Of a DNA stretch of 64,000 nucleotides, positions 24,003-48,850 are shown in pieces. The notes beneath the pieces were generated by a model. It ran no database searches. It had not been told where the DNA came from and was given only the letters and a program-made list of their open reading frames with translations. How positions within the stretch are numbered: position 1 is the stretch's first letter; the number at the start of each line of letters is the position of its first letter. The position numbers were made by a program, and so were the translations under genes. The DNA comes from the human T2T-CHM13v2.0 reference genome, Homo sapiens: the NCBI RefSeq assembly GCF_009914755.1, contig NC_060927.1; one strand, written 5' to 3'.

Positions 24003-26205
<2,203 letters not shown>

Positions 26206-32873: not shown

Positions 32874-33354
<481 letters not shown>

Positions 33355-34582
33355 TCACCTAAAAGAATAAATCCTAGCTTTAGAAAACGCTTTTCTTTCA
33401 ATCAGTATATTGAAAATTCACAAAGCATCTGGACCTCTGTAGTTGATAAGTATGTACAGAGTGTTTGTAACATCAAAAACATTGTATGCTATCAGAGAGA
33501 AAAATAGATAAATGAAGAGCCATGTTTGAAGATAAGATGAAGAACTTAAAAGATGTCTTAGAGTTTCCAAAATTTTGACATAGTTAACTCAATGTAAATT
33601 ATCAGTACATGAGATTATATTAATTAGTGTGGAAATAACACTTTATATTACTATGTCCAAACATGTTCTTAGTGTAACTGGGCAAAAACTCTGGCAGAAA
33701 TCTATAATTACACGTAAATACTATGACTTGTTTTCCTAAGGCCAAACTACATGCAATGGGCTGAGTTGAGAAAGAAACCCAGGTCTTCTAATTTACATAG
33801 TTTATCAGAGGCTGATTAGCTCTAGTGGAGAATGTACATTTAACTTAAGCATGAACCAGCAATGAGGACAATCAGGTTAAATGATTCCAGTTTAATCTTT
33901 CATTCCAATAAGACACAACTTAAAATTTAATGTTTTCCTTATAACCAATGACCTGAGTGGGAGCTCAGGAAGGCTTTGAAAATGGTTAATAGAGGAGGTA
34001 ACTTCAGGAAATTAGAGAAATACAGTCTTACATTGGGTTGCAAAAGGTTAGGCTTATAAAATAGAGCAGGAAAAAATATAGACTGCATCTAAAATCAAAT
34101 CTGTAATGAATTAGGATGAAGCTCAGAAGCATTTGTATAACTAACTGCTACTCTCCAGATTTCTGTCTGCAGGGGCCCATAAGCATCTTTCTCATTGCGG
34201 AAATCTATCATTTTTATTGTAAATTTTTTGGTTAGAAAATGCATGCAAAGAACATTTTAGTATCATTGTAGCTATGAAATAAAATTAAAATATAGTTAAA
34301 TATAAAACTTATTCCAGTTATGGAAATGCAATGACCTTAATTTTTTAAATGGTTTTGTTTTTCACTGTTGATATGTTCAGTGAAAATCAATCACACATGG
34401 AACAAATACCACAAGTCTTGTAGACCGACTCAACAAAAATATCAGTTATTAAATAAACTGTGATTTAGCCACCAAAGTCTCAGCAGAAGCTGTTTATAAT
34501 TAATCGTTCCTGTCCTTATGTAGATGCAATGAAACATTTGCAGTAATGTTGCCTGCAATTCTTTTATTAAAGAACAACTCCA

Positions 34583-34897
<315 letters not shown>

Positions 34898-35762
34898 TCA
34901 CAGTTTAACATCTTTTGTGTGAATTTGAATTCTTGTGATCAAATATTATTGTGTCTTATAAAGTAAAATATTTCTGTTATTTTTATATTTATAATATTTC
35001 CTATTATAATAATCTATGTGTGATTAAAATAGCTAAAAGTAAAAATTTTTTGTGGAAACTAAGAATTTAAACATAACTAATATGTATTAAAAACAATTAC
35101 CTTTTCTTCTCAAGTACAAAACTTTATTAAAATAGGAAAATCATACAGGTAGTGACAGAAGAAAATGCCACATAAAAAGTTAACAATGTGCATTTTTGTG
35201 TTACAATTATGATTGCTTATTTTTCTTCTTAATTTCTTAATTTATTTCAGATTGTGTGTTAGTTTTTTAAATGACATTTTATTATTTAATTCTAGAAATT
35301 AGAGATTGTAAATAATTTTTTTAGATTTTATTGTTTCAAAAAAGTAGACAAGGAGTCATACATTTTCTGGGAAAATAACAATTTAGAAAAATGTTGACAA
35401 TCTATCTAATCCTAGGGGAATCTTTGCAAGTGATTGTTGTTTTGAGAGTGGCTCTTTACTGATATTCACCTAAAATAAAATACTTTGAAACAGTATCTCC
35501 ATCCAAGAAAAAAGCTTACAAAAATAAACAGTTGAGTTATCTTGGAAACAAGAAACACTTTTAAAAAGATAATTACATTTTATAATAAATTACTTTAATA
35601 ATCCAAATGGAATCATCCTCCTTAAAAATGTTTTGTTAGTAGTAATTATTAAAATCATAAATCATTTTGTAAAATTTGTACTTTTGGTACAAAATGAGAA
35701 AGTATTTAAAAATTTATTTCAAAAAATTTAGCAATAGTTTGTTAAATTCAGATAGTATATTT

Positions 35763-36193
35763 TTTCATGCGCGTCCGTGTGAAGAGACCACCAAACAGGC
35801 TTTGTGTGAGCAATAAAGCTGTTTATTTCACCTGGGTGCAGGTGGGCTGAGTCTGAAAAGAGAGTCAGCAAAGGGTGGTGGATCATCATTAGTTCTTATA
35901 GGTTTTAGGATAGGTGGTGAAGTTAAGAGCAATGTTTTGCAGGCAGGGGTGGATCTCACAAAGTACATTCTCAAGGGTGGGGAGAATTACAAAGTACCTT
36001 CTTAAGGGTGGGGGAGATTACAAAGTACATTGATCAGTTAGGGTGGGGCAGGAACAAATCACAGTGGTGGAATGTCATCAGTTAAGGCTATTTTTACTTC
36101 TTTTGTGGATCTTCAGTTACTTCAGACCATCTGGATGTATACATGCAAGTCACAGGAGATGCGATGGCTTGGCTTGGGCTCAGAGGCCTGACA
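35763..36193 (-). repeat. HERV-H 3' LTR (LTR7 type, 431 bp)
   Basis: Direct repeat of 42481-42897; minus-strand AATAAA at 35822-35827; three tactttgt-containing U3 repeat units. Confidence 0.97.
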
Positions 36194-36206: not shown

Positions 36207-36417
36207 ATATTAATAAGAAAAATAAAACAAAATAGTGTTGAAGTGTTGGGGCGGCGAAAATTTTGGGGGGTGGTATGGAGAGAGAATGGGCGATGTTTCT
36301 CAGGGCTGCTTCAAGCGGGATTAGGGGCGGTGTGGGAACCTAGAGTGGGAGAGATTAAGCTGAAGGGAGATCTTGTGGTAAGGGGTGATATTGTGGGGTT
36401 GTTAGAAGAAACATTTG

Positions 36418-38109
36418 TCATATAGAATGATCGGTGATGGCCTGGATATGGTTTTGGATGAATTGAGAAACTAAATGGAAGATACAAGGTCTGAAAAAAA
36501 GAAGGAGAAAAATGGGTATTAAAGGACTAAGAATTGGAAGGACCCAGGACATCCAATTAGAGAGTGGCCAAGGGGGTTCAGCATAATTACTTGCTTGGTT
36601 GGCAAGATTTTGGGCTTTATCCTTGAGTTTTTTTATGTTGTCATACACCAGGCCAGATTGATTTAGGTAAAAATAAGACTCTTCATTTAAGAATATACAG
36701 AGTCCTCCTTTTTCAGCAGTGAGTAAGTCAAGGCCTTGGCGGTTTTGGAGGACAACTGCAGCTGAAGAGTCAACTTGGGCCTGGAGGCCTGATAAAGTTT
36801 GTGATATGTCTGTAATGCTAGCAGAGAAGTCATTAGACAGGATACGGAAGGTCGTGACAGAGGTTGAAATGCCTGCTATTCCAGTACCGAGAGCAACAGT
36901 GGAGGCAGAAAGTCCTAAACCAACCATCAAGGGAATTAGTGGAATAACTCTTTTTTGTCGTGTCGGTGTCATGAGGGGAACAGGGAGCTCTTCAGTCCCA
37001 TTTGCAAATTGAATTTTGGAGGTAAGGAAAACTAGTGTGCATGTGCCTGTCCAATTAGCAGGTAGACACATGTAGGTAGAGGATCCACAGAGGAAGAAGA
37101 GACTTTGTACTAGGCAAAACTGGAGATGTAAAGTAAAAAGGTGAGAAGGAGTGCTGAAAGGGGTGTCTTGTACCCAGACTCTTAGGGATCCACCTAGGGG
37201 GGCAGCAGTCAGAGGTTGTAATGGGGACTGATGGGGTAACTGCGTAGAGGGGGAGGTTCGATTTTCATGGTATATGAGAAAACGTTGAGCATCTACGAGC
37301 AAACTTTCACTGTTATTTTTGGGGCTGGGTATAAGTAAACAAGAAGAGGGTCTGGGAGGAGAGTCTGATGAGCAAGGGGAAAATAGCCAAGGATGGAGTG
37401 AAATACAGGACAAGTGTCTTCCTAAGCAATAATTACTGCTAACGTTTTTAAGTTTGTCAGTATTGATAGAGGGCTTGTCTGTAATATGGAGCTGGAAGGC
37501 TCCATTTGTTTCAGTGATGTGTGTAGTTGGGCTTCGGAGATGAAGAGTAAAGGAACATCGAGAAGGTGAAAGATTACCTAGGGGAATTCCAGTGGGTCTT
37601 TGCCGAGAGATACATAAAGGAGCGGCCACAGGAATAGTAGTTTGTGTTGTGAGCGGTCCAAATGTGGGGGGAGTAGAGTTAATATAAGGAGAAAGGTTTT
37701 TTAAATAAGTGCAGAGGAGGGCGGCAGCTTGCTGATGTGAAATGTCTGGGGAAGTCTTGCTGGACCTGTCTAGAAAGTAAATGAGTTTTTCAGGAGGGTA
37801 AAGGTGAGGGCTGTTAAAGGAAGTTCGGAGGTGTGGGGAGACAGGAGATGTTGCCCAGTCTGTCTGTAAGGCAGGGACAGCTGGGTAGGCACTGGAAGGA
37901 AGGGAAATGCAAAGCCAGCAGTTTTTCACTAAGGAGGGATTAGAAACGGCTAGGAGAGAATGGGTAAGGTTGATAGTGTGGTGGAGATAGCTGGGGAGAG
38001 GTAAAGGGTGGCATAAGATTGGGAATGAGAATAAGAGTGAGTATAAAAGTAAAGAATAGAACTTCATCAGGGTGGAAGTATTGGAGGATGCCCTGCCAGC
38101 AAAGATCAT
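36418..38109 (-). CDS. env: HERV-H envelope glycoprotein ORF, 563 aa (probably envH2 / HERV-H env60)
   Basis: Signal-like MKFYSLLLYSLLFSFPILC, CWLC (aa64-67), RQKR (aa384-387), fusion peptide VIPLIPLMVGLGL, ISD LQNRQGLDLLTAEKGGL (aa454-470), TM WVLPILSPLIPIFLLLFF. The locus identity rests on recalled length only; expression is not shown by the sequence. Confidence 0.95.
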   Translation of the reverse strand: MIFAGRASSNTSTLMKFYSLLLYSLLFSFPILCHPLPLPSYLHHTINLTHSLLAVSNPSLVKNCWLCISLPSSAYPAVPALQTDWATSPVSPHLRTSFNSPHLYPPEKLIYFLDRSSKTSPDISHQQAAALLCTYLKNLSPYINSTPPTFGPLTTQTTIPVAAPLCISRQRPTGIPLGNLSPSRCSFTLHLRSPTTHITETNGAFQLHITDKPSINTDKLKNVSSNYCLGRHLSCISLHPWLFSPCSSDSPPRPSSCLLIPSPKNNSESLLVDAQRFLIYHENRTSPSTQLPHQSPLQPLTAAPLGGSLRVWVQDTPFSTPSHLFTLHLQFCLVQSLFFLCGSSTYMCLPANWTGTCTLVFLTSKIQFANGTEELPVPLMTPTRQKRVIPLIPLMVGLGLSASTVALGTGIAGISTSVTTFRILSNDFSASITDISQTLSGLQAQVDSSAAVVLQNRQGLDLLTAEKGGLCIFLNEESYFYLNQSGLVYDNIKKLKDKAQNLANQASNYAEPPWPLSNWMSWVLPILSPLIPIFLLLFFRPCIFHLVSQFIQNHIQAITDHSI

Positions 38110-40549
38110 CTATCCACTCTAAGAAGGAGTTAAGAGTGGCAGTTTCGGGATAGCACCAAGAGATATCAGCTGTGATGGCTTGAAGAAACAGTGTAAACTG
38201 GCGGTGTAAACAAGAGTAGGGCATTTATAAGTAGTTGATAATGGAGAATAGGAGTATGACCAGACAGAAGATAGTAGGGATGACTCGTTTTTGGGGGCAC
38301 AGTCTAAGTTAGTCTGCTCTCTGGAATGAGACTGGGGCCTAATAAAAAGGAGCATCTATACAGGAGCTCAAATGGGCTGTACCCTGTAGCATTCTGAGGA
38401 CAGGTCTGACTTCTGAGAAAGGAAAGTGGTAAAAGTATTGTCTAGTCCTTTTTAAGTTGGTGGCTGAGCTTGGTGAGGTGTGTTTTTAAAAGACCGTTAG
38501 TCTGTTCTACTTTTCCTGAAGACTGAGGACTGTAAGGGATATAAAGGTTTCACTAAATATTAAGAGCCTGAAAAACTGCTTGGCTGATTTGACTAATAAA
38601 GGCTGGTCAGTTATCAGACTGTATAGAGGTGGGAAGGCTAAACTGAGGGATTATGTCTGACAGAAGGGAAGAAATGACTGTGGTGGCCTTCTCAGACCCT
38701 GTAGGAAAGGCCTCTACCTATCCAGTGAAAGTGTCTACCTAGACTAAGAGGTATTTTAGTTATCTGACTCGGGGCATGTTGAGTAAAGCTAATTTGCCAG
38801 TCCTGGGTGGGGGCAAATTCTTGAGCTTGATGTGTAGGGAAGGGAGGGGGGCCTGAATAATCCTTGAGGAGTAGTAGAATAGCAGATGGAACACTGAGAA
38901 GTTATTTCCTTGAGGATAGATTTCCACGATGGAAAGGAAATGAGAGGTTTTAAGAGGCGGGCTAGTGATCTGTACTATAGCATAGCCTGCCTTTGCTGGT
39001 GTGTGGTGATTAGGCCTGGTGGAACCGCCATTAATAAATCAAGCATGATCAGGGTGAGGAACAGGAAAGAAGGAAATATGGGGAAATGAGGTGAATGTCA
39101 GGTGGATCAGAGAGATACAGTCATGAGGGTCAGGTGTGGTTTCCAGAATAATGTGGGAGACCGGATTGAAGTCCCGGTCAGGAACAATGGTAATTGTGGG
39201 ACTTAACAAAGAGTGAGTACAGCTGAAGGAGCCGGGGAGCAGAAAGTATATGCATCAGGTATGAGGAAGAAAATAGATTTTGGAAGTTATGAGAAATGTA
39301 GAGAGTAAGTTGAGCATAGTTTGTGATTTTGAGGGCCTCTAAAAGTATTAGGGTGGCAGCAGCCGCTGCAGGGAGACATGATGGCTAGGCTAAAACAGTA
39401 AGGTCAAGTTGTTTGGACAGAAAGGCTATAGGGTGTGGTCCTGGCTCTTTTGTAAGAATTCTGACTGCACTATGCCTAGGAAGGGAAGGAGTTGTTGTTT
39501 TGTAAGGGATTGAGGTTTGGGAGATTAATCGGACACAATCAGCAGGGAAAGCACATGTGTTTTTATGAGAATTGTGCCGAGATAGGTAACAGATGAGGAT
39601 GAAATTTGAGCTTGACTGAAGTAATGGGGGCTGTCTATGAAGACTTGCGGCAGTACAGCCCAGGTAATTTGCTGAACCTAATGGGTGTCAGGGTCAGTCT
39701 AAGTGAAAGCAAAGAGAGTCTGGGATGAGGCGTGCAGGGGAATAGTAAAAAAAGCATCTTTAAGATCGAGAACGGAATAGTGAGTTGTGGAGGAAGGTAT
39801 TGAGGACAGAAGAGTGTACGGGTTGGGCACTACAGGGTGGATAGGCAAAACAATTTGGTTGATAAGGCGCAGATCCTGAACTAATCTGTAAGACTTGTCC
39901 GGTTTTTGGACAGGTAAAATGGGGAAATTGTAAGGAGAGTTTATAGGTTTTAGAAGCCCATGCTGTAGCAGGCGGGTGGTAACAGGCTTTAATCCTTTTA
40001 AAGCATGCTGTGGGATGGGATATTGGTGTTGAGCCGGGTAAGAGTGATTAGGTTTTAATGAGATGGTAATGGACATGTGATGGTAATGGGCATGTCATCG
40101 GTTGCAAGGGAAGGAGTAGAGATGTCCCATACTTGTGGGTTAAGGTGGGGGGATATGAGAGGAAGATGCGAAGGAGGCTTTGGGTTGGGAAGAAGTGCGG
40201 CAATGAGATGCGGCTGTAGTCCAGGAATAGTCAGGGAAGCAGATGATTTGGTTAAAATATTTTGGCCTAATAAGTGAACTGGGCAGGTGGGGATAACTAA
40301 AAAAGAGTGCATTAAAGAGTGTTGTCCAAGTTGGCACAAGAGTGGGGGAGTTTTCAGGGGTTTAGAAGCCTGGCCGTCAATACCCACAACAGTTATGGGG
40401 GCAAGGGAAACAGGCCCTTGAAAAGAAGGTAATGTGGAGTGGGTAGCCTCTGTATTGACTAAGGGGATGGACTTACCTTCCACTGTGAGAGTTACCCGAA
40501 ACTCGGCGTCCTTGATGGTCTACGGGGGTTCCGAGGTGATCGAGCAGCA
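38110..40549 (-). pseudogene. pol: Defective HERV-H pro-pol
   Basis: Protease DTG site reads NTE; RT motifs YRLVQDLR and VLDLKDAFF are followed by TAG stops; LPQVF is joined directly to QISSSSVTYLG (YxDD segment absent); integrase WQIDFT reads WQISFT; frameshifts. Confidence 0.92.
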
Positions 40550-41700
40550 TCAGTCTTCAGCCGCTAAACCGAGAAGGAGTCCGTCAGAGAGCCTTGGGCC
40601 AGAGTTCCAGAGGCTCTGGGAGTAGCTTCCAGGTGAGTTGAACAGTCTGATTTCCAGTGGGGTCCCGCAAAGATGCAACATGGCTTAGGAGGAATCCTGG
40701 GCTGTAGGCATTCCTTGGCCTGGTGGTCAGATTTCTGGCACTTGTAGCAAGCTCCTGGGGGAGGAGGTTCTGGAGGAATGCCTGGCTGCTGCGGTTCAGG
40801 TGTTTGGAAGTTCTTGTGTGCTGGAGGTGTGGCTGGGGTTTGTCTCACAGTGGAGGCAAGTAATTGCAACTTTTTTCTATTATTGTACACCTTGAAGGCG
40901 AGGTTAATTGAATCCTGTTGTGGGGTTTGAGGGCCGGAATTTAATTTTTGGAGTTTTATTTAATGTCAGGAGCAGATTGGGTAATAAAATGTATTTTGAG
41001 AATAAGACGGCCTTTTGACCTTTTAGGGTCTAGGGCTGTAAAGCGTCTCAGGGTTGCTGCCAAACGAGCCATGAACTGGGCTGGGTTTTTATATTTGATG
41101 AAAAAGAGCCTAAATGCTATCTGATTTGGGATAAAGAAAAAGGAGCATTAACCTTGATTATGCCTTTAGCTCCAGCCACCTTTTTAAGAGTAAATTGCTG
41201 GGCAGGTGGGGGAGGGCCAGTCATGGTATGAAACTGTAAGTGGGACCAGGTGTGAGGAGGGGAGGTGATAAAAGGATTATAGGGTGGAGGAGCAGAGGCT
41301 GAGGAAGAATTGGGACTTAGCTCAGCCTGGCGAGGAGGGGAGAGGTCAGATGGTTCTGTAGAAAAGGAAGATTAGAAAGACTCAGTAATGCTTCGGGTTG
41401 GGACTGAGGGGACTGGCAGGAGGGAAAGAAGGAAGAAGATTTGGGACGAGTTGCACTGGACACAGAGACTAGGGAGGGACCGATGTGTAAAAGAATGCTG
41501 GGAAGTCAGGCACCTCAGACCTTTTGCCCATTTTACGACAAGAATTATTTAGATCTTGCAGGATGGAAAAATTGAAAGTGCCATTTTCTGGCTATTTGGA
41601 ACTACTGTTGAGTTTGTATTGGGGTCAACTGGCATTGCAGAAGAAAACAAGATGCTTAGATTTTAGGTCAGGTGAGAGTTGAAGAGGTTTTAAGTTCTTA
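40550..41700 (-). pseudogene. gag: Defective HERV-H gag (5' boundary approximate)
   Basis: Zinc knuckle CYKCQKSDHQAKEC (~40708-40749), degenerate second knuckle CCIFAGPHWKSDC; no long ORF upstream. Confidence 0.85.
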
Positions 41701-41769
41701 AGAACACAGGCTAAGGGAGAAGGAGGAGGAATGGAGGGTGGAAGGTTGCCCACAGTGAAGGAGGCAAGC

Positions 41770-42045
41770 CCAGAGAAAAGAGAGAGTAGAGACATGGAGG
41801 GAAGGGGTTTGGGGGTTCTTACCCTCCAGAAAAGCAGGAAAGGGGTCGGGGCACGGAAATAAGGGATTGGGGGTTCTTGCCCCCTAGAAAAGTGGGACTT
41901 GCCGCTAAGGGTGAAGGAGAAGGGGTTGAGGGGTACTTGCCCCTCCCCCAGGAAAGCAGAGAAGAGGTAGAGACATGGAGAGAAGGAGTTGGGGTACTTG
42001 CCCTTCCCCCAGAAAAGCGGGACTTGCCGCTAAGGGTGAAGGACC
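41770..42045 (-). repeat. Imperfect direct repeats in the HERV-H leader
   Basis: gaaaag(t/c)gggacttgccgctaagggtgaagga, gtagagacatggag and ggggtacttgcccct each occur twice. Confidence 0.8.
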
Positions 42046-42327
42046 AAGGCAGGCGTCCCTGTGTGGTCTGACACCTTTGAAACCTGGGTGAATAATCAGA
42101 GAGGCATCCTTGCAATGATTAAACACCAAGGGAAGGCTGCCTTCCCAGTCCGTGACTGGCGTCGGAGTTTTGGGTCCACGGATAAAACATGTCTCCTTTG
42201 TCTCTACCAGAAAATGAAAGGAATTGAAATTAAGAGAAGGGAGAGATTGAAGTGTGGTGCCAAGATTGAAAGGAGAAAGAGGTTGAGGGATAGTGAGGGA
42301 AGTTGGAGAAGAGAGTAAAAAGAGGCC

Positions 42328-42336
42328 GCTTACCGG
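42328..42336 (-). promoter_or_regulatory. Candidate major splice donor of HERV-H
   Basis: CCG|GTAAGC on the minus strand, ~130 nt downstream of the PBS. Confidence 0.75.
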
Positions 42337-42460
42337 ATTTGAAATTGGTGAGATGTTTCTTGGGCTGGTCAGTCTGAGGACCTGAGGTCATAGGTGGATC
42401 TTTTCTCATGGAGCAAAGAGCAGGAGGACAGGGGATTTATCTCCCAAGGGAGGTCCCCCG

Positions 42461-42478
42461 ATCCGAGTCACGGCACCA
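42461..42478 (-). other. Primer-binding site, tRNA-His
   Basis: TGGTGCCGTGACTCGGAT, an 18-nt complement of the tRNA-His 3' end, 2 nt inside the 5' LTR boundary. Confidence 0.97.
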
Positions 42479-42480
42479 AA

Positions 42481-42897
42481 TTTCATGTGTGTCCATGTAA
42501 AGAGACCACCAAACAGGCTTTGTGTGAGCAATAAAACTGTTTATTTCACCTGGGTGCAGGTGGGCTGAGTCCGAAAAGAGAGTCAGCAAAGGGTGGTGGA
42601 TTATCATTAGTTCTTATAGGTTTTGGGATAGGTGGTGAAGTTAAGAGCAATGTTTTGAGGGCAGGGGTGGATCTCACAAAGTACATTCTCAAGGGTGGGG
42701 AGAATTAGAGTACCTTCTTAAGGGTGGGGGAGATTGATCAGTTAGGGTGGGGCACGAACAGATCACAATGGTGGAATGTCATCAGTTAAGGCTGTTTTTA
42801 CTTCTTTTGTGGATCTTCAGTTACTTCAGGCCATCTGGATGTATACATGCAAGTCACAGGGGATGCAATGGCTTGGCTTGGGCTCAGAGGCCTGACA
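42481..42897 (-). promoter_or_regulatory. HERV-H 5' LTR (LTR7 type, 417 bp)
   Basis: Adjacent to the PBS; TATA-like CCTATAAGAAC at ~42610-42620; three GGGTGGGG (KLF/SP-type) boxes. Confidence 0.97.
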
Positions 42898-44642
42898 TAT
42901 TTGGAGAACAAAAATAACTGAATATCATCAGGAGATGAAATGTAATTTGCATTGAAATTAAGGAACAAGGACAGAATACAAGGAAATCAAGCTATTATAT
43001 TTTATTATACCTTTGTTTTTATTTTTATTGATATTAAATAGCATTTGAAATAAAATAGAAATGATTCTGACATATCATGAATTTGGTGTCTCTGCTGATT
43101 ATAAAACAGACTTCACAGAATATAAAATGAAACACTAACAATTTATTTGACTACTCTGTATTTCTGTGTTGACACAGTAATATTTCATTAAACAGAACTA
43201 TTATCTACCGCTGCCCTTTCCTTGACCCTCAAGTTTATCTTAATTTGTTTTAGATTTCGAAATGAGAGGAATGCAAATAAAAAATGTTGAAACATGGGGT
43301 TGAGTGTAGCGCATTCCTGTTTGCTTTCAATCCCTCCTCTATAGAGCTTTCCTTGTCCAGCTCAGGCTGGAAATTTGTCACTTCTCTGAGCCCCAAGGCA
43401 CCTGATGTCTTTGTGTGTTATTCACTCAGTGATTTGGTATTGTCTTATAATGTTTTAATAATAAGCACATTAGTTCATACAATTGTTTTCATGTGAATTT
43501 TCCTGGGCCTTAACAATAGTCCCAGGGAGTTTGGAGAAGGCAGGTATTATTATCCACACTTTGAGGTAGGGGAATGGAAGTTCACATGTTTGCTTAAGGC
43601 CAACTGGCTTTTTAAATGGTGGTAGCAGATATACAATCTAGAATTATTTTCCATTGTATTATTAAACATTGTAATATTATTTAATTCAAAAATTTATGTT
43701 GAACTTTTAAATATCCAATGGGAATTTTAAAAATCTACCATATTTTTAATTAATTACTTACTAATTTTTATTGTTTTAACTAATTACCACAAAAGATCTT
43801 AAACTAGACTTTTGGACTGCCATTTCTATGTGATAGATGCAAAGGCTGAAGCTTAGAGAGATTCCATAATTAGCCCCAAAGTTATAGTGCCAAGGTTACA
43901 GAATCATTACTGAAATGTAGGTGTTCTGAAATTTTATCCTATACCCCATGATGCTTTTTAATAGAGAATGAACAAACTTATTAGTAAATCCCTCCTTATA
44001 CTTTACAGAATATATACTCATAGTAAATATTATATAAACTATGAGTCATTTTAATTTAACGTGAAAAGTTTTTAATCACTCTCTATCTACACCTGTAAAT
44101 ACAATGATATGTAAATAGATAGACAAACAGATCTTTGCTATTTCACAAAGATTCCTTTATTATTTCATCAAAAAAAAATTGAAGGCTTAAGTCTATAAGA
44201 GAAAGAAACAGCCAGAAAAAGAGCATGTGGCATACTTAAACTTACTAAAATGAATTAAATTGAATTTATCTGAATCACTGAGCTCGAAGTATGGTTTACC
44301 AAATTATACAATGCTGCAAAAATAAGACTGATTTTCAGACAGAAAGTAAAGACATAAATTTTATTCAATATGTATCAAAATACAGAAAATAAAATCATCA
44401 GGGGTCAGTTGATAACAATTCATTTTCACTAAAAATTGACACCAGGTATTAAGATAATAGTCTGGGTAGATGTTTTGGCTGGCTTTGGTATGTGTACTGA
44501 AAAATTAACCCTCAATAATTTCACAAATATCTGTGGAGTGCTTACTGTGTATTACGTATTATATCATGCTATCCTCACAACAGCTCAATAAGATAGATAT
44601 TAACTCTATTAGTGAATGATAAACTGATACTGAGTTTCTAGA

Positions 44643-46161: not shown

Positions 46162-46425
46162 GAACCACTGAACAAGTAGTTTTAAAAGATTAAATATTTT
46201 AATATATCTATTGTATATTTTACATGTTTGGTATTCTTTTGTATAACAAATGGAAACTTTTTAAAAAAAGAAGAAATAACTCACAACATAGTGTAATTAT
46301 ATGGAAATTATAGGAGGAAAAAAAAGAAATAAAGAGTACTTGATGGTTCCACATGTCCAACAAGAGCCTCCGAAAAGTTGGCAGGAAAAAAAATGAATGA
46401 AATAAATTCTTAAAAAGAAATACTC

Positions 46426-46725
<300 letters not shown>

Positions 46726-47319
46726 TAACAAATTCTTCAGAAGTAAAGATAGAGATAAGTCTTCAGTTTGAAAGACTCCTCCAAGTGCTGCTAAGAGTGA
46801 ATTAAAAGAAAGAATCATACTTAAACAGACTCCTTTAAAATTTCAAAGTTTCAAAAATAATGTATTGGATTTCATTTAAAAAATGCTTACAAAAGACATC
46901 ATTAAGAAAATAAACAGAAAAATCAGACTGGAGAATACTTGAAATGCATGTATAGGTCTAAGGAATTATATTCAAAAATTATAAATAACTCCTGCAAATC
47001 AAAAATAAAACAATCCAATGAGAAAATGAGCAAATTACTTGAAAGAGTAATCATTCCTCAAAAGAATCAGAAGAAAAAGTAGCATACGGTATGGTGGCTT
47101 TCTCTTTTAAGAAAGTCTCCTTCATTAATATACAATGCCCAATCCATTAGCTTTTTTTGTTTGTTTTTCACCTTCTTTTACCACTGACTGCACAAAATAT
47201 AAAGATGTGGTTTATATTATACTAAGAAAACTTGCCTGTGAGAACCACATGACAGGTTTGGTGCTTGTGGTGTTGGTGGTAGTTCTTTCATTTTTGTCTT
47301 TTCATATTATCATTACTTT

Positions 47320-48850
<1,531 letters not shown>

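What the first reader, a model, noticed from the sequence alone, without database searches (positions are those of the whole stretch)
36418..38109. Open 563-codon HERV-H env in an otherwise dead provirus
Seen: 1,692 nt with no internal stop or frameshift, retaining the signal peptide, CWLC, several N-x-S/T sequons, RQKR, fusion peptide, heptad/ISD and membrane anchor, while gag, pro, RT and IN are all inactivated. Established (recalled): most HERV-H copies lack env, and only three human loci have long env ORFs (584, 563 and 555 aa), the 563-aa one being envH2/env60 at 3q26. This is therefore probably a known but poorly characterised ORF rather than a new system. Inference: a candidate co-opted Env (immunomodulation or receptor interference), or a chance survivor.
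Basis: partly seen in the sequence, partly recalled or inferred. Interest (0 to 1): 0.8.

Follow-up and report, generated by a model that had tools for sequence, protein, structure and literature searches.

The report
Known HERV-H envH2 gene, decaying
This is the already described 563-codon envelope gene (envH2/p60/Env60) of a dead HERV-H provirus at 3q26, and its own mutations look like neutral decay rather than a gene the host has kept for a purpose.

Summary
Window 36418-38109, minus strand, is an uninterrupted 563-codon gamma-type retroviral env ORF. It lies in a 7.1-kb HERV-H provirus whose gag, protease, RT and integrase survive only as fragments in different frames.

It is the published envH2/p60/Env60 locus at 3q26. 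It is one of only 3 full-length stop-free matches among 87 HERV-H env matches in this genome.

Co-option is not supported.
- Of 27 substitutions unique to this copy, 23 change the protein and 4 do not. Clearly dead copies pool to 162:64.
- Its terminal branch is as long as those of dead copies.
- The two adjacent cysteines of the TM CX6CC motif read Ser-Tyr, and the immunosuppressive domain carries a change.
- A stop at a CpG-prone arginine codon cuts 21 codons off the tail.
- De Parseval et al. 2005 state that this group of env genes is coding only in the human lineage and probably stayed open by chance.
- My estimate of chance survival is about 4-22% per copy.

Verdict: already known, a chance survivor. 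Ape orthologues and human null-allele frequencies could not be examined here.

The parts
35758..35762 (-). Downstream copy of a 5-bp target-site duplication (AAATA on the minus strand)
   Evidence: Read off the junction sequences printed. The same five bases lie directly outside the other LTR at 42898-42902.
35763..36193 (-). 3' LTR of the HERV-H provirus
   Evidence: Direct repeat with 42481-42897. 418 aligned sites, 16 transitions, 2 transversions, 14 gap columns, K2P 0.0448. It starts TGTCAGG after a purine-rich tract.
36355..36417 (-). Remnant of the cytoplasmic-tail coding region beyond the present stop: 20 open codons plus the stop used by the 584-codon form
   Evidence: One search shows the frame stays open after the TGA down to the stop at which the chr2 584-aa copy also ends.
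36418..38109 (-). env ORF, 563 codons plus TGA (envH2 / p60 / Env60). T2T-CHM13 chr3:169,606,418-169,608,109
   Evidence: 100% self-match, open frame 563. Literature identity.
36418..36420 (-). Stop codon TGA at codon 564, where 6 of 12 full-length copies read an arginine codon (CGA) and 3 others also read TGA
   Evidence: The TGA-bearing copies are scattered over the tree, which suggests recurrent CpG transitions.
36457..36555 (-). Membrane anchor (about residues 519-551)
   Evidence: Hydropathy, 19-residue windows with KD above 1.6. Aligned to the syncytin-2 anchor.
36673..36699 (-). Degenerate CX6CC motif: Cys471, six residues, then Ser478-Tyr479 in place of Cys-Cys
   Evidence: One search gives the sequence and shows no Cys between 471 and 542. 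One search aligns it to the CC of syncytin-2 and syncytin-1. One search shows both changes are unique to this copy among the copies compared.
36700..36750 (-). Immunosuppressive domain, residues 454-470; 16 of 17 residues as in the published HERV-H ISD
   Evidence: Codon 458 is CAA here and in 2 others of the 25 copies covering it, CGA in 18 and TGA in 4.
36874..36948 (-). Fusion peptide region (about residues 388-412)
   Evidence: Hydropathy. Aligned to the syncytin-2 fusion peptide.
36949..36960 (-). Furin-type SU/TM cleavage site RQKR (384-387)
   Evidence: Codon 384 is CGA here but TGA in 13 of the 27 copies covering it.
37909..37920 (-). CWLC (CXXC) motif of SU, residues 64-67
   Evidence: Aligned to CWLC of syncytin-2.
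38011..38109 (-). N-terminal signal-peptide region (about residues 1-33)
   Evidence: Hydrophobic windows starting at residues 14 and 20. No signal-peptide predictor was available.
38526..38756 (-). Integrase core remnant (Pfam rve, model 24-102 of 102)
   Evidence: E 3.5e-9, read with X at stops.
39615..39911 (-). Reverse-transcriptase remnant (Pfam RVT_1, model 1-131 of 205)
   Evidence: E 2.3e-10. No RNase H hit. Only about 860 nt separate it from the integrase remnant.
40232..40495 (-). Protease remnant (Pfam RVP), in a different frame from RT
   Evidence: E 3.5e-5.
40708..41090 (-). gag remnants: Gag_p30 fragment (40953-41090) and zinc knuckle (40708-40752), in two different frames, both below Pfam's curated cut-offs
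42461..42478 (-). Primer-binding site, 18 nt, two bases after the 5' LTR. I recall it as the tRNA-His type that names HERV-H.
   Evidence: Sequence printed. PMC3253121 says HERV-H has a PBS similar to tRNA-His. The match to the tRNA was not computed.
42481..42897 (-). 5' LTR
42898..42902 (-). Upstream copy of the 5-bp target-site duplication

Best explanation
The ORF is the env gene of an old, otherwise dead HERV-H provirus. It is the published envH2/p60/Env60 locus at 3q26. It has stayed open through neutral drift, not because the host uses it.

Shown here:
- It has gamma-type Env architecture.
- Its own lineage-specific changes are overwhelmingly amino-acid-changing.
- It has lost both adjacent cysteines of CX6CC.
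- It carries a change in the immunosuppressive domain and another at a heptad leucine that is conserved in the three solved homologues.
- It has lost 21 tail codons to a stop at a CpG-prone arginine codon.

Inferred from established (recalled) knowledge of gamma-type Envs: if the locus is transcribed and spliced, the product would enter the ER, be N-glycosylated and probably be cleaved at RQKR. Without the CC pair it could form neither the TM loop disulfide nor the SU-TM disulfide with CWLC. SU would then be loosely held or shed, and the protein would not be fusogenic.

Any activity, such as acting as an antigen or an ISD-type effect in de-repressed tumour cells, would be incidental and not selected.
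For: Identity:
- The 563-aa ORF is on chr3, minus strand.
- envH2 (p60) is listed at 3q26 with 563 aa, at (-) chr3:168023715-168025406, which is 1,692 nt, in an older assembly, and as 'EnvH2 EnvH/p60 Chr. 3 (-1) Intact'.

No constraint:
- I compared it with 31 other copies, chosen as the best-scoring of the 87 matches. 27 bases are unique to this copy: 23 non-synonymous and 4 synonymous (SU 13:3, TM 10:1).
- Ten interrupted copies pool to 162:64. Adding L013, which I had left out (5:4), gives 167:68 by my arithmetic.
- Fisher p = 0.17 against that neutral pool. P(>=23 of 27) is 1.3e-3 at omega 0.5 and 8e-6 at omega 0.3.
- The terminal branch is 0.033, against a median of 0.029, in a star-like tree.

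Damage:
- S-Y stands where syncytin-2 and syncytin-1 have C-C.
- A serine stands where all three printed homologues have the leucine of 'DSLA'.
- The ISD differs at 1 of 17 positions.
- The TGA at codon 564 is followed by 20 still-open codons.

Chance is sufficient:
- 3.4-4.5% of possible single-base changes create a stop. P(no stop) is 0.29-0.40 for 27 changes. For 56 changes (0.033 x 1692) it is about 0.08-0.15 by my arithmetic.
- 6 of 11 other full-length copies have no frameshifting indel.
- Together this gives roughly 4-22% per copy, and 3 of the 12 full-length copies in hand are open.

Against: - Five CpG-prone CGA codons (95, 184, 192, 284, 384) are still unhit here. At each of them 5 to 13 of the other copies compared read TGA. 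Treating the six CpG-prone internal arginine codons (these five plus 458) as independent gives only about 16% escape by my arithmetic. Independence is doubtful, because some stops may be inherited within subfamilies.
- Three open copies among 12 full-length ones is on the high side of my estimate.
- The N:S test rests on 27 changes. It uses the commonest base of the other copies to classify each change.
- Reviews report Env60 RNA or protein up-regulated in pancreatic cancer cells undergoing EMT, and effects of a HERV-H ISD peptide. The primary paper, Kudo-Saito 2014, was not held.
- Env60 RNA rises on HP1-alpha knock-down, so the locus can be transcribed.
- I could not examine ape orthologues or human variation. 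The 2001 primary paper on ape orthologues was not readable.
Confidence: 0.85

Rival explanations
1. Co-opted host gene. The Env, or its SU alone, is kept in humans for immunomodulation or for blocking a receptor, as suppressyn or Fv4-type Envs do. Loss of the SU-TM link would then be part of the adaptation, giving a shed decoy SU.
For: - The ORF is open only in the human lineage according to PMC1236922, which could also be read as human-specific retention.
- The signal peptide, CWLC, 11 sequons and furin site are intact.
- The N:S of 23:4 is above the neutral 2.5:1, though not significantly (one-sided p = 0.084).
- A HERV-H-related env (suppressyn) is a proven co-option.
Against: - There is no purifying selection in SU (13:3) or TM (10:1).
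- The branch length equals that of dead copies.
- Orthologues are reported as non-coding in apes.
- The authors of the env survey class it with genes drifting to pseudogenes.
- The supplied RefSeq table has no gene model at this locus.
- No paper on selection or translation at this locus surfaced in the searches.
Confidence: 0.05
2. Not selected, but biologically active when de-repressed. In tumours or aged or epigenetically disturbed cells the locus is transcribed, and the protein acts through its ISD or serves as an antigen.
For: - HERV-H/env60 RNA rises after HP1-alpha knock-down.
- It was assayed in haematopoietic stem cells.
- Reviews cite Env60 up-regulation in EMT pancreatic cancer cells and ISD-peptide-induced CCL19.
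- A full-length HERV-H Env was immunosuppressive in a mouse tumour-rejection assay. I recall that this was the chr2 p62 copy, not this one.
Against: - The ISD here differs from the published HERV-H ISD at one position, and the neighbouring cysteines are gone.
- The endometrial study used one primer pair for envH1-3, so it is not locus-specific.
- A microarray study singled out envH3, not envH2, in colon tumour.
- I saw no protein-level, locus-unique evidence.
Confidence: 0.25
3. The relevant product is RNA or a regulatory LTR, as for the HERV-H long non-coding RNAs and enhancers of pluripotent cells. On this reading the ORF is irrelevant.
For: HERV-H loci are widely transcribed as non-coding spliced RNAs and as PSC lncRNAs (abstracts listed). 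Both LTRs and the primer-binding site are present here.
Against: Nothing seen here ties this particular locus to such a role. The active loci listed in PMC3253121 are env-deleted elements elsewhere, and its '3q26' entry is at chr3:189.86 Mb (hg19), a different locus. I could not assign the LTR subfamily.
Confidence: 0.08

Closest known systems
envH2 / EnvH-p60 / HERV-H Env60, 3q26 (GenBank AJ289710; de Parseval et al. 2001, cited)
   Same: Same chromosome band, strand, ORF length (1,692 nt, 563 aa) and family. I take it to be the same locus.
   Different: None detected. I could not fetch AJ289710, so residue-by-residue identity of the T2T-CHM13 allele with the published clone is untested.
envH1 / p62 (chr2, 584 aa) and envH3 / p59 (chr2, 555 aa), the two other open HERV-H env genes
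   Same: Same architecture. 91% and 88% amino-acid identity, 95.4% and 92.7-94.1% nucleotide identity. No indel against envH1 over 1,692 nt. envH3 has the same TGA at codon 564.
   Different: envH1 keeps the longer tail and has only 7 unique changes (4 N, 3 S), against 27 here. envH3 has a 24-nt in-frame deletion. The S-Y replacement of the CC pair is unique to the window copy among the copies compared.
Syncytin-2 (HERV-FRD Env; PDB 7OIX, 6RX3, 1Y4M)
   Same: Closest solved homologue, phmmer E 7.7e-77 over residues 50-558. CWLC, furin site, fusion peptide, ISD and anchor all align.
   Different: Syncytin-2 keeps CX6CC. It is coding in 7 of 7 primate lineages and is fusogenic. The window Env lacks the CC pair, and the literature places it among the env genes coding in human only.
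Suppressyn (ERVH48-1), a co-opted HERV-H48-derived truncated Env
   Same: A HERV-H-related env product. It shows that an Env without fusion function can be co-opted as a receptor antagonist.
   Different: Suppressyn has a documented receptor interaction (ASCT2) and placental role. Nothing comparable is known or indicated for this locus, and no constraint was detected.

Membership tests
Gamma-type retroviral Env (Pfam TLV_coat, PF00429) | Profile match to the family | tested here: met
   E 2.1e-55, 189 bits against a cut-off of 22.5. Syncytin-2 at E 7.7e-77.
Gamma-type retroviral Env (Pfam TLV_coat, PF00429) | N-terminal signal peptide, CXXC in SU, R-x-K/R-R cleavage site, fusion peptide, membrane anchor | tested here: met
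   CWLC 64-67, RQKR 384-387, hydrophobic segments at 14-38, 388-412 and 519-551. The signal peptide was judged from hydropathy only.
Gamma-type retroviral Env (Pfam TLV_coat, PF00429) | CX6CC motif in TM (loop disulfide plus the cysteine that pairs with CXXC of SU; these roles are recalled) | tested here: not met
   C471-x6-S478-Y479, with no other Cys until 542. It aligns to the CC of syncytin-1 and syncytin-2. By descent it is a member; as a working gamma-type fusion protein it fails this feature.
Gamma-type retroviral Env (Pfam TLV_coat, PF00429) | Immunosuppressive domain of the CKS-17 type | tested here: inconclusive
   16 of 17 residues equal the HERV-H ISD printed in PMC13431525 Table 8. 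The effect of the one change is unknown.
HERV-H provirus | LTR pair, target-site duplication, tRNA-His type primer-binding site, gag-pro-pol-env order | tested here: met
   LTRs are 95.7% identical at aligned sites. A 5-bp AAATA lies on both sides, and the PBS follows the 5' LTR. Domain remnants are in the canonical order. 87 env relatives exist in the genome. No repeat library was available to name the LTR subfamily, and the match of the PBS to tRNA-His is recalled.
envH2 / p60 / Env60 locus | 3q26, minus strand, 563-aa ORF | tested here: met
   It is the only stop-free full-length HERV-H env match on chr3.
envH2 / p60 / Env60 locus | Sequence identity to GenBank AJ289710 | not testable with these tools
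   No tool fetches GenBank human records. The protein search returned only the ENH3_HUMAN cluster by name.
Co-opted Env genes (syncytin / suppressyn type) | Purifying selection since integration | tested here: not met
   23 N to 4 S unique changes. Omega <= 0.5 rejected at p = 1.3e-3. Terminal branch as long as in dead copies.
Co-opted Env genes (syncytin / suppressyn type) | ORF conserved at the orthologous locus in other primates | not testable with these tools
   No primate genomes are held. [quoted passage not shown] The figure and the 2001 source paper were not seen.
Co-opted Env genes (syncytin / suppressyn type) | Regulated expression and protein in a normal tissue; a demonstrated activity | not tested
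   Only RNA assays in cell lines, tumours and HSC were seen in passages. The fusion-screen paper (PMC240736) and the transcriptome paper (PMC228468) were not held.

The most novel reading that the evidence does not exclude
A human-specific neofunctionalised Env. The ORF is open in humans only, and the loss of both CX6CC cysteines frees SU from TM. The locus would then make a secreted or shed SU that acts as a receptor decoy or immune modulator. On this reading the excess of amino-acid changes (23:4, against a neutral ratio of about 2.5:1) would reflect adaptive change rather than decay.
Probability: 0.05. Interest if true: 0.6.

Novelty: already known. Interest (0 to 1): 0.12.

Why it matters
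The locus is one of three HERV-H env genes that disease studies repeatedly cite as 'coding'.

It helps readers of that literature to know that this copy carries a disabled SU-TM linkage motif, an altered immunosuppressive domain and a shortened tail, and that it shows no sign of constraint. Assays with family-wide primers, or with peptides of the family's standard ISD, do not speak for this locus.

As a discovery it adds nothing categorically new.

Tried and rejected
- Pfam would not take a frame with stops. I re-sent it with stops read as X.
- The large protein search gave the ENH3_HUMAN cluster at 87% identity plus unnamed fragments. It gave nothing usable on ape orthologues. Clustering at 90% identity would hide them in any case.
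- Three papers were not held: de Parseval 2003 (PMID 12970426 / PMC228468) and Blaise 2003 (PMC240736). De Parseval 2001 (Virology) and Kudo-Saito 2014 are known to me only through citations. Their details on ape orthologues, fusion tests and Env60 protein were therefore not seen.
- Two literature searches found nothing on null-allele frequencies or translation at this locus: 'HERV-H, env, gnomAD' (10 papers listed) and 'HERV-H, Env, Ribo-seq, open reading frame, 2q24' (11 papers listed).
- The '3q26' HERV-H element active in colon tumour in PMC3253121 is a different locus, at chr3:189.86 Mb hg19.
- The passages I saw of PMC6298018, on provirus/solo-LTR dimorphism, list four chr3 loci and none is here. 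Its supplementary tables were not read.
- The 2011 ERV nomenclature paper assigns no ERVH symbol to this locus in the passages seen.
- Pairwise Nei-Gojobori dN/dS against other copies (0.52-0.96) mixes pre- and post-integration change, so I did not use it as the test of constraint.
- I rejected a Poisson reading of stop counts per copy, because several stops recur at the same codons and may be inherited within subfamilies.
- No structure prediction was run. The sequence alignment to solved homologues already places the changed residues.
Full report
**Observation**

One search lists one long ORF in the region: 36418..38109 on the minus strand, ATG to TGA, 563 codons. The plus strand of the same stretch is full of stops. 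Pfam assigns it to TLV_coat (PF00429) at E 2.1e-55.

- CWLC at residues 64-67.
- Eleven N-x-S/T sequons.
- RQKR at 384-387.
- Hydrophobic segments for the signal peptide (windows starting at 14-20), the fusion peptide (388-394) and the membrane anchor (519-533).
- The immunosuppressive domain at 454-470.

The ORF, its coordinates and the motifs are therefore confirmed.

**The provirus**

Two LTRs flank the ORF, at 35763-36193 and 42481-42897. They share 418 aligned sites with 16 transitions, 2 transversions and 14 gap columns, giving K2P 0.0448.

At neutral rates of 1.0-2.2e-9 per site per year (rates recalled) this dates the integration to about 10-22 Myr ago.

The junctions printed show three features:
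- The same five bases (AAATA, minus strand) lie directly outside both LTRs.
- An 18-nt primer-binding site sits two bases after the 5' LTR.
- A purine-rich tract precedes the 3' LTR.

This is one integration event that still has both of its own LTRs.

Between the PBS and env only 4.4 kb remain. Read with X at every stop, the three frames give only partial Pfam matches, in the canonical order but in different frames:
- Gag_p30 and a zinc knuckle, both below the curated cut-offs.
- RVP.
- RVT_1, model positions 1-131 of 205.
- rve, model positions 24-102 of 102.
- No RNase H match at E<=0.01.

One frame of 38000-42480 holds 56 stops. The longest other open stretch is 160 codons. 'Otherwise dead provirus' is correct.

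**Identity**

The window is T2T-CHM13 chr3:169,570,001-169,634,000, so the ORF is chr3:169,606,418-169,608,109, minus strand.

I searched the whole assembly with the protein and obtained 87 matches. That call scored 77 of 3363 first-look candidates, so counts are lower bounds. Only three matches cover residues 1-563 without a stop:
- This one, with an open frame of 563.
- chr2:166.17 Mb, with 584.
- chr2:155.33 Mb, with 555.

These are the sizes and chromosomes of envH2/p60, envH1/p62 and envH3/p59 in the literature:
- PMC3717959 Table 1 lists envH2 (p60), 3q26, AJ289710, 563 aa.
- PMC2853125 gives envH2 as (-) chr3:168023715-168025406, which is 1,692 nt.
- PMC524368 lists 'EnvH2 EnvH/p60 Chr. 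3 (-1) Intact'.

For all papers I saw only passages returned by term searches. I could not fetch AJ289710, so residue-level identity of this allele to the published clone is untested.

**Is the gene under constraint?**

I aligned the env stretches of 31 other copies to the ORF. These were 11 full-length copies and 20 further high-scoring ones fetched. The remaining 55 of the 87 matches were not used.

The ML tree of 18 of these copies is star-like. Inner branches are 0.002-0.006 and terminal branches have a median of 0.029. The window copy's branch is 0.033, as long as those of copies riddled with stops.

I then counted bases found in one copy only, at columns where at least 80% of at least 12 other copies agree.
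- The window ORF has 27 such changes: 23 non-synonymous and 4 synonymous. SU has 13:3 and TM has 10:1.
- Ten interrupted copies pool to 162:64, a ratio of 2.53.
- I had left out L013 (5:4). Adding it gives 167:68 by my arithmetic.
- The two other open copies gave 4:3 (envH1) and 16:6 (envH3).

The window copy does not differ significantly from the neutral pool (Fisher p = 0.17). If anything it leans towards more amino-acid changes (one-sided p = 0.084).

Purifying selection is rejected. P(>=23 of 27) is 1.3e-3 at omega 0.5 and 8e-6 at omega 0.3.

Unique changes amount to 1.6% of sites, against 2.2% for half the LTR divergence. That fits neutral accumulation since integration.

**What the changes hit**

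phmmer against solved structures puts syncytin-2 first (7OIX, E 7.7e-77, residues 50-558). Syncytin-1 and other gamma-type TM ectodomains follow. The printed alignments show three things:
- The window reads Ser-Tyr (478-479) where syncytin-2 and syncytin-1 have the Cys-Cys of CX6CC. Only Cys471 remains in the TM ectodomain. Both changes are unique to this copy among those compared.
- A leucine in the N-helix ('DSLA' in all three printed homologues) is serine here.
- The second arginine of 'LQNRRGLD' is glutamine.

The published HERV-H ISD has RR at that position (PMC13431525 Table 8). Codon 458 is CGA in 18, TGA in 4 and CAA in 3 of the 25 copies covering it.

From recalled knowledge of gamma-type Envs, the first two cysteines of CX6CC form the TM loop and the third bonds to CXXC of SU. 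Losing both adjacent cysteines should uncouple SU from TM and abolish regulated fusion. This step is inference and was not tested.

**The 563-codon length is itself a truncation**

There is no indel against the 584-codon chr2 copy over the 1,692 nt.

At codon 564 the window has TGA. Six of 12 full-length copies have CGA, three others have TGA, and two have other codons. The TGA copies are scattered over the tree. After the TGA, 20 codons remain open down to the stop used by the 584-codon form.

The likeliest reading is a CpG transition that removed 21 codons of the cytoplasmic tail. Inheritance of the TGA from the integrating virus cannot be excluded.

**Is an open frame surprising?**

3.4-4.5% of possible single-base changes in the ORF create a stop. 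This gives P(no stop) of 0.29-0.40 for 27 changes. For 56 changes (0.033 x 1692) it is about 0.08-0.15 by my arithmetic.

Six of the 11 other full-length copies have no frameshifting indel.

Together this makes roughly 4-22% per copy. Three of the 12 full-length copies in hand are open.

One point argues against pure luck. Five CGA codons (95, 184, 192, 284, 384) are still intact here, while each is TGA in 5 to 13 of the copies compared. If the six CpG-prone internal arginine codons (these five plus 458) were independent, escape at all six would be about 16% by my arithmetic. Shared stops may also be inherited within subfamilies, so I give this little weight.

**Literature on function**

- PMC1236922 (passages) reports that the SNP survey of envH2 failed ('multiple sequence profiles').
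[quoted passage not shown] The figure and the 2001 source paper were not seen.
- The T2T assembly holds no second near-identical copy of this locus (one 100% match, the next at 91%). This agrees with the authors' view that their mixed profiles were off-target amplification.
- Env60 RNA rises after HP1-alpha knock-down in a cultured cell line. It has also been assayed in stem cells.
- Reviews cite up-regulation in EMT pancreatic cancer cells and effects of a HERV-H ISD peptide.
- The endometrial study used one primer pair for all three envH genes.

None of this shows a selected function. The ISD and cysteine differences mean that family-level reagents do not necessarily report on this locus.

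**Verdict**

This is a correctly observed ORF that has been known since 2001. The evidence gathered here agrees with the published view and sharpens it: it is a chance survivor in neutral decay, and it already carries changes that should disable a gamma-type fusion protein.

Co-option is not excluded outright, because ape genomes and human variation could not be examined. I put it at about 5%.

Noticed in passing
env codons 95, 184, 192, 284, 384, 458, 564 (window 36418-37827, minus strand) and the matching columns of loci L002-L032: Across the HERV-H env copies compared, stops recur at the same few arginine CGA codons. For example, codon 384 reads TGA in 13 of 27 copies and codon 95 in 8 of 26. 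The same codons often read CAA. CpG decay appears to be the main killer of this gene family, and the ORF has only 20 CpG against about 70 expected from base composition.
   Followed up: partly
Loci L001-L018, env stretches: The tree of env copies is star-like, with terminal branches about ten times longer than inner ones. Indels are rare: 5 of 11 full-length copies have any frameshifting indel over 1.7 kb.
   Followed up: partly
window 33028-34900 and 46407-47674: Four to five copies of a 150-175-nt direct repeat at 77-83% identity. The 114-codon minus-strand ORF at 32989-33333 lies in one of them. They look like Alu elements, which is recalled; no repeat library was available.
   Followed up: no
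window 39699-40076, minus strand: A 125-codon ATG ORF lies at 39699-40076; the RT-domain remnant (RVT_1, 39615-39911) overlaps it, and it is the only non-env ATG ORF of 100 codons or more in the provirus.
   Followed up: partly
window 24009-25930: CBX1P5 processed pseudogene, according to the supplied annotation. It is unrelated to the provirus and I did not examine it.
   Followed up: no
window 35763-36193 vs 42481-42897: The two LTRs differ by 14 gap columns in two openings, besides 18 substitutions of which 16 are transitions.
   Followed up: no
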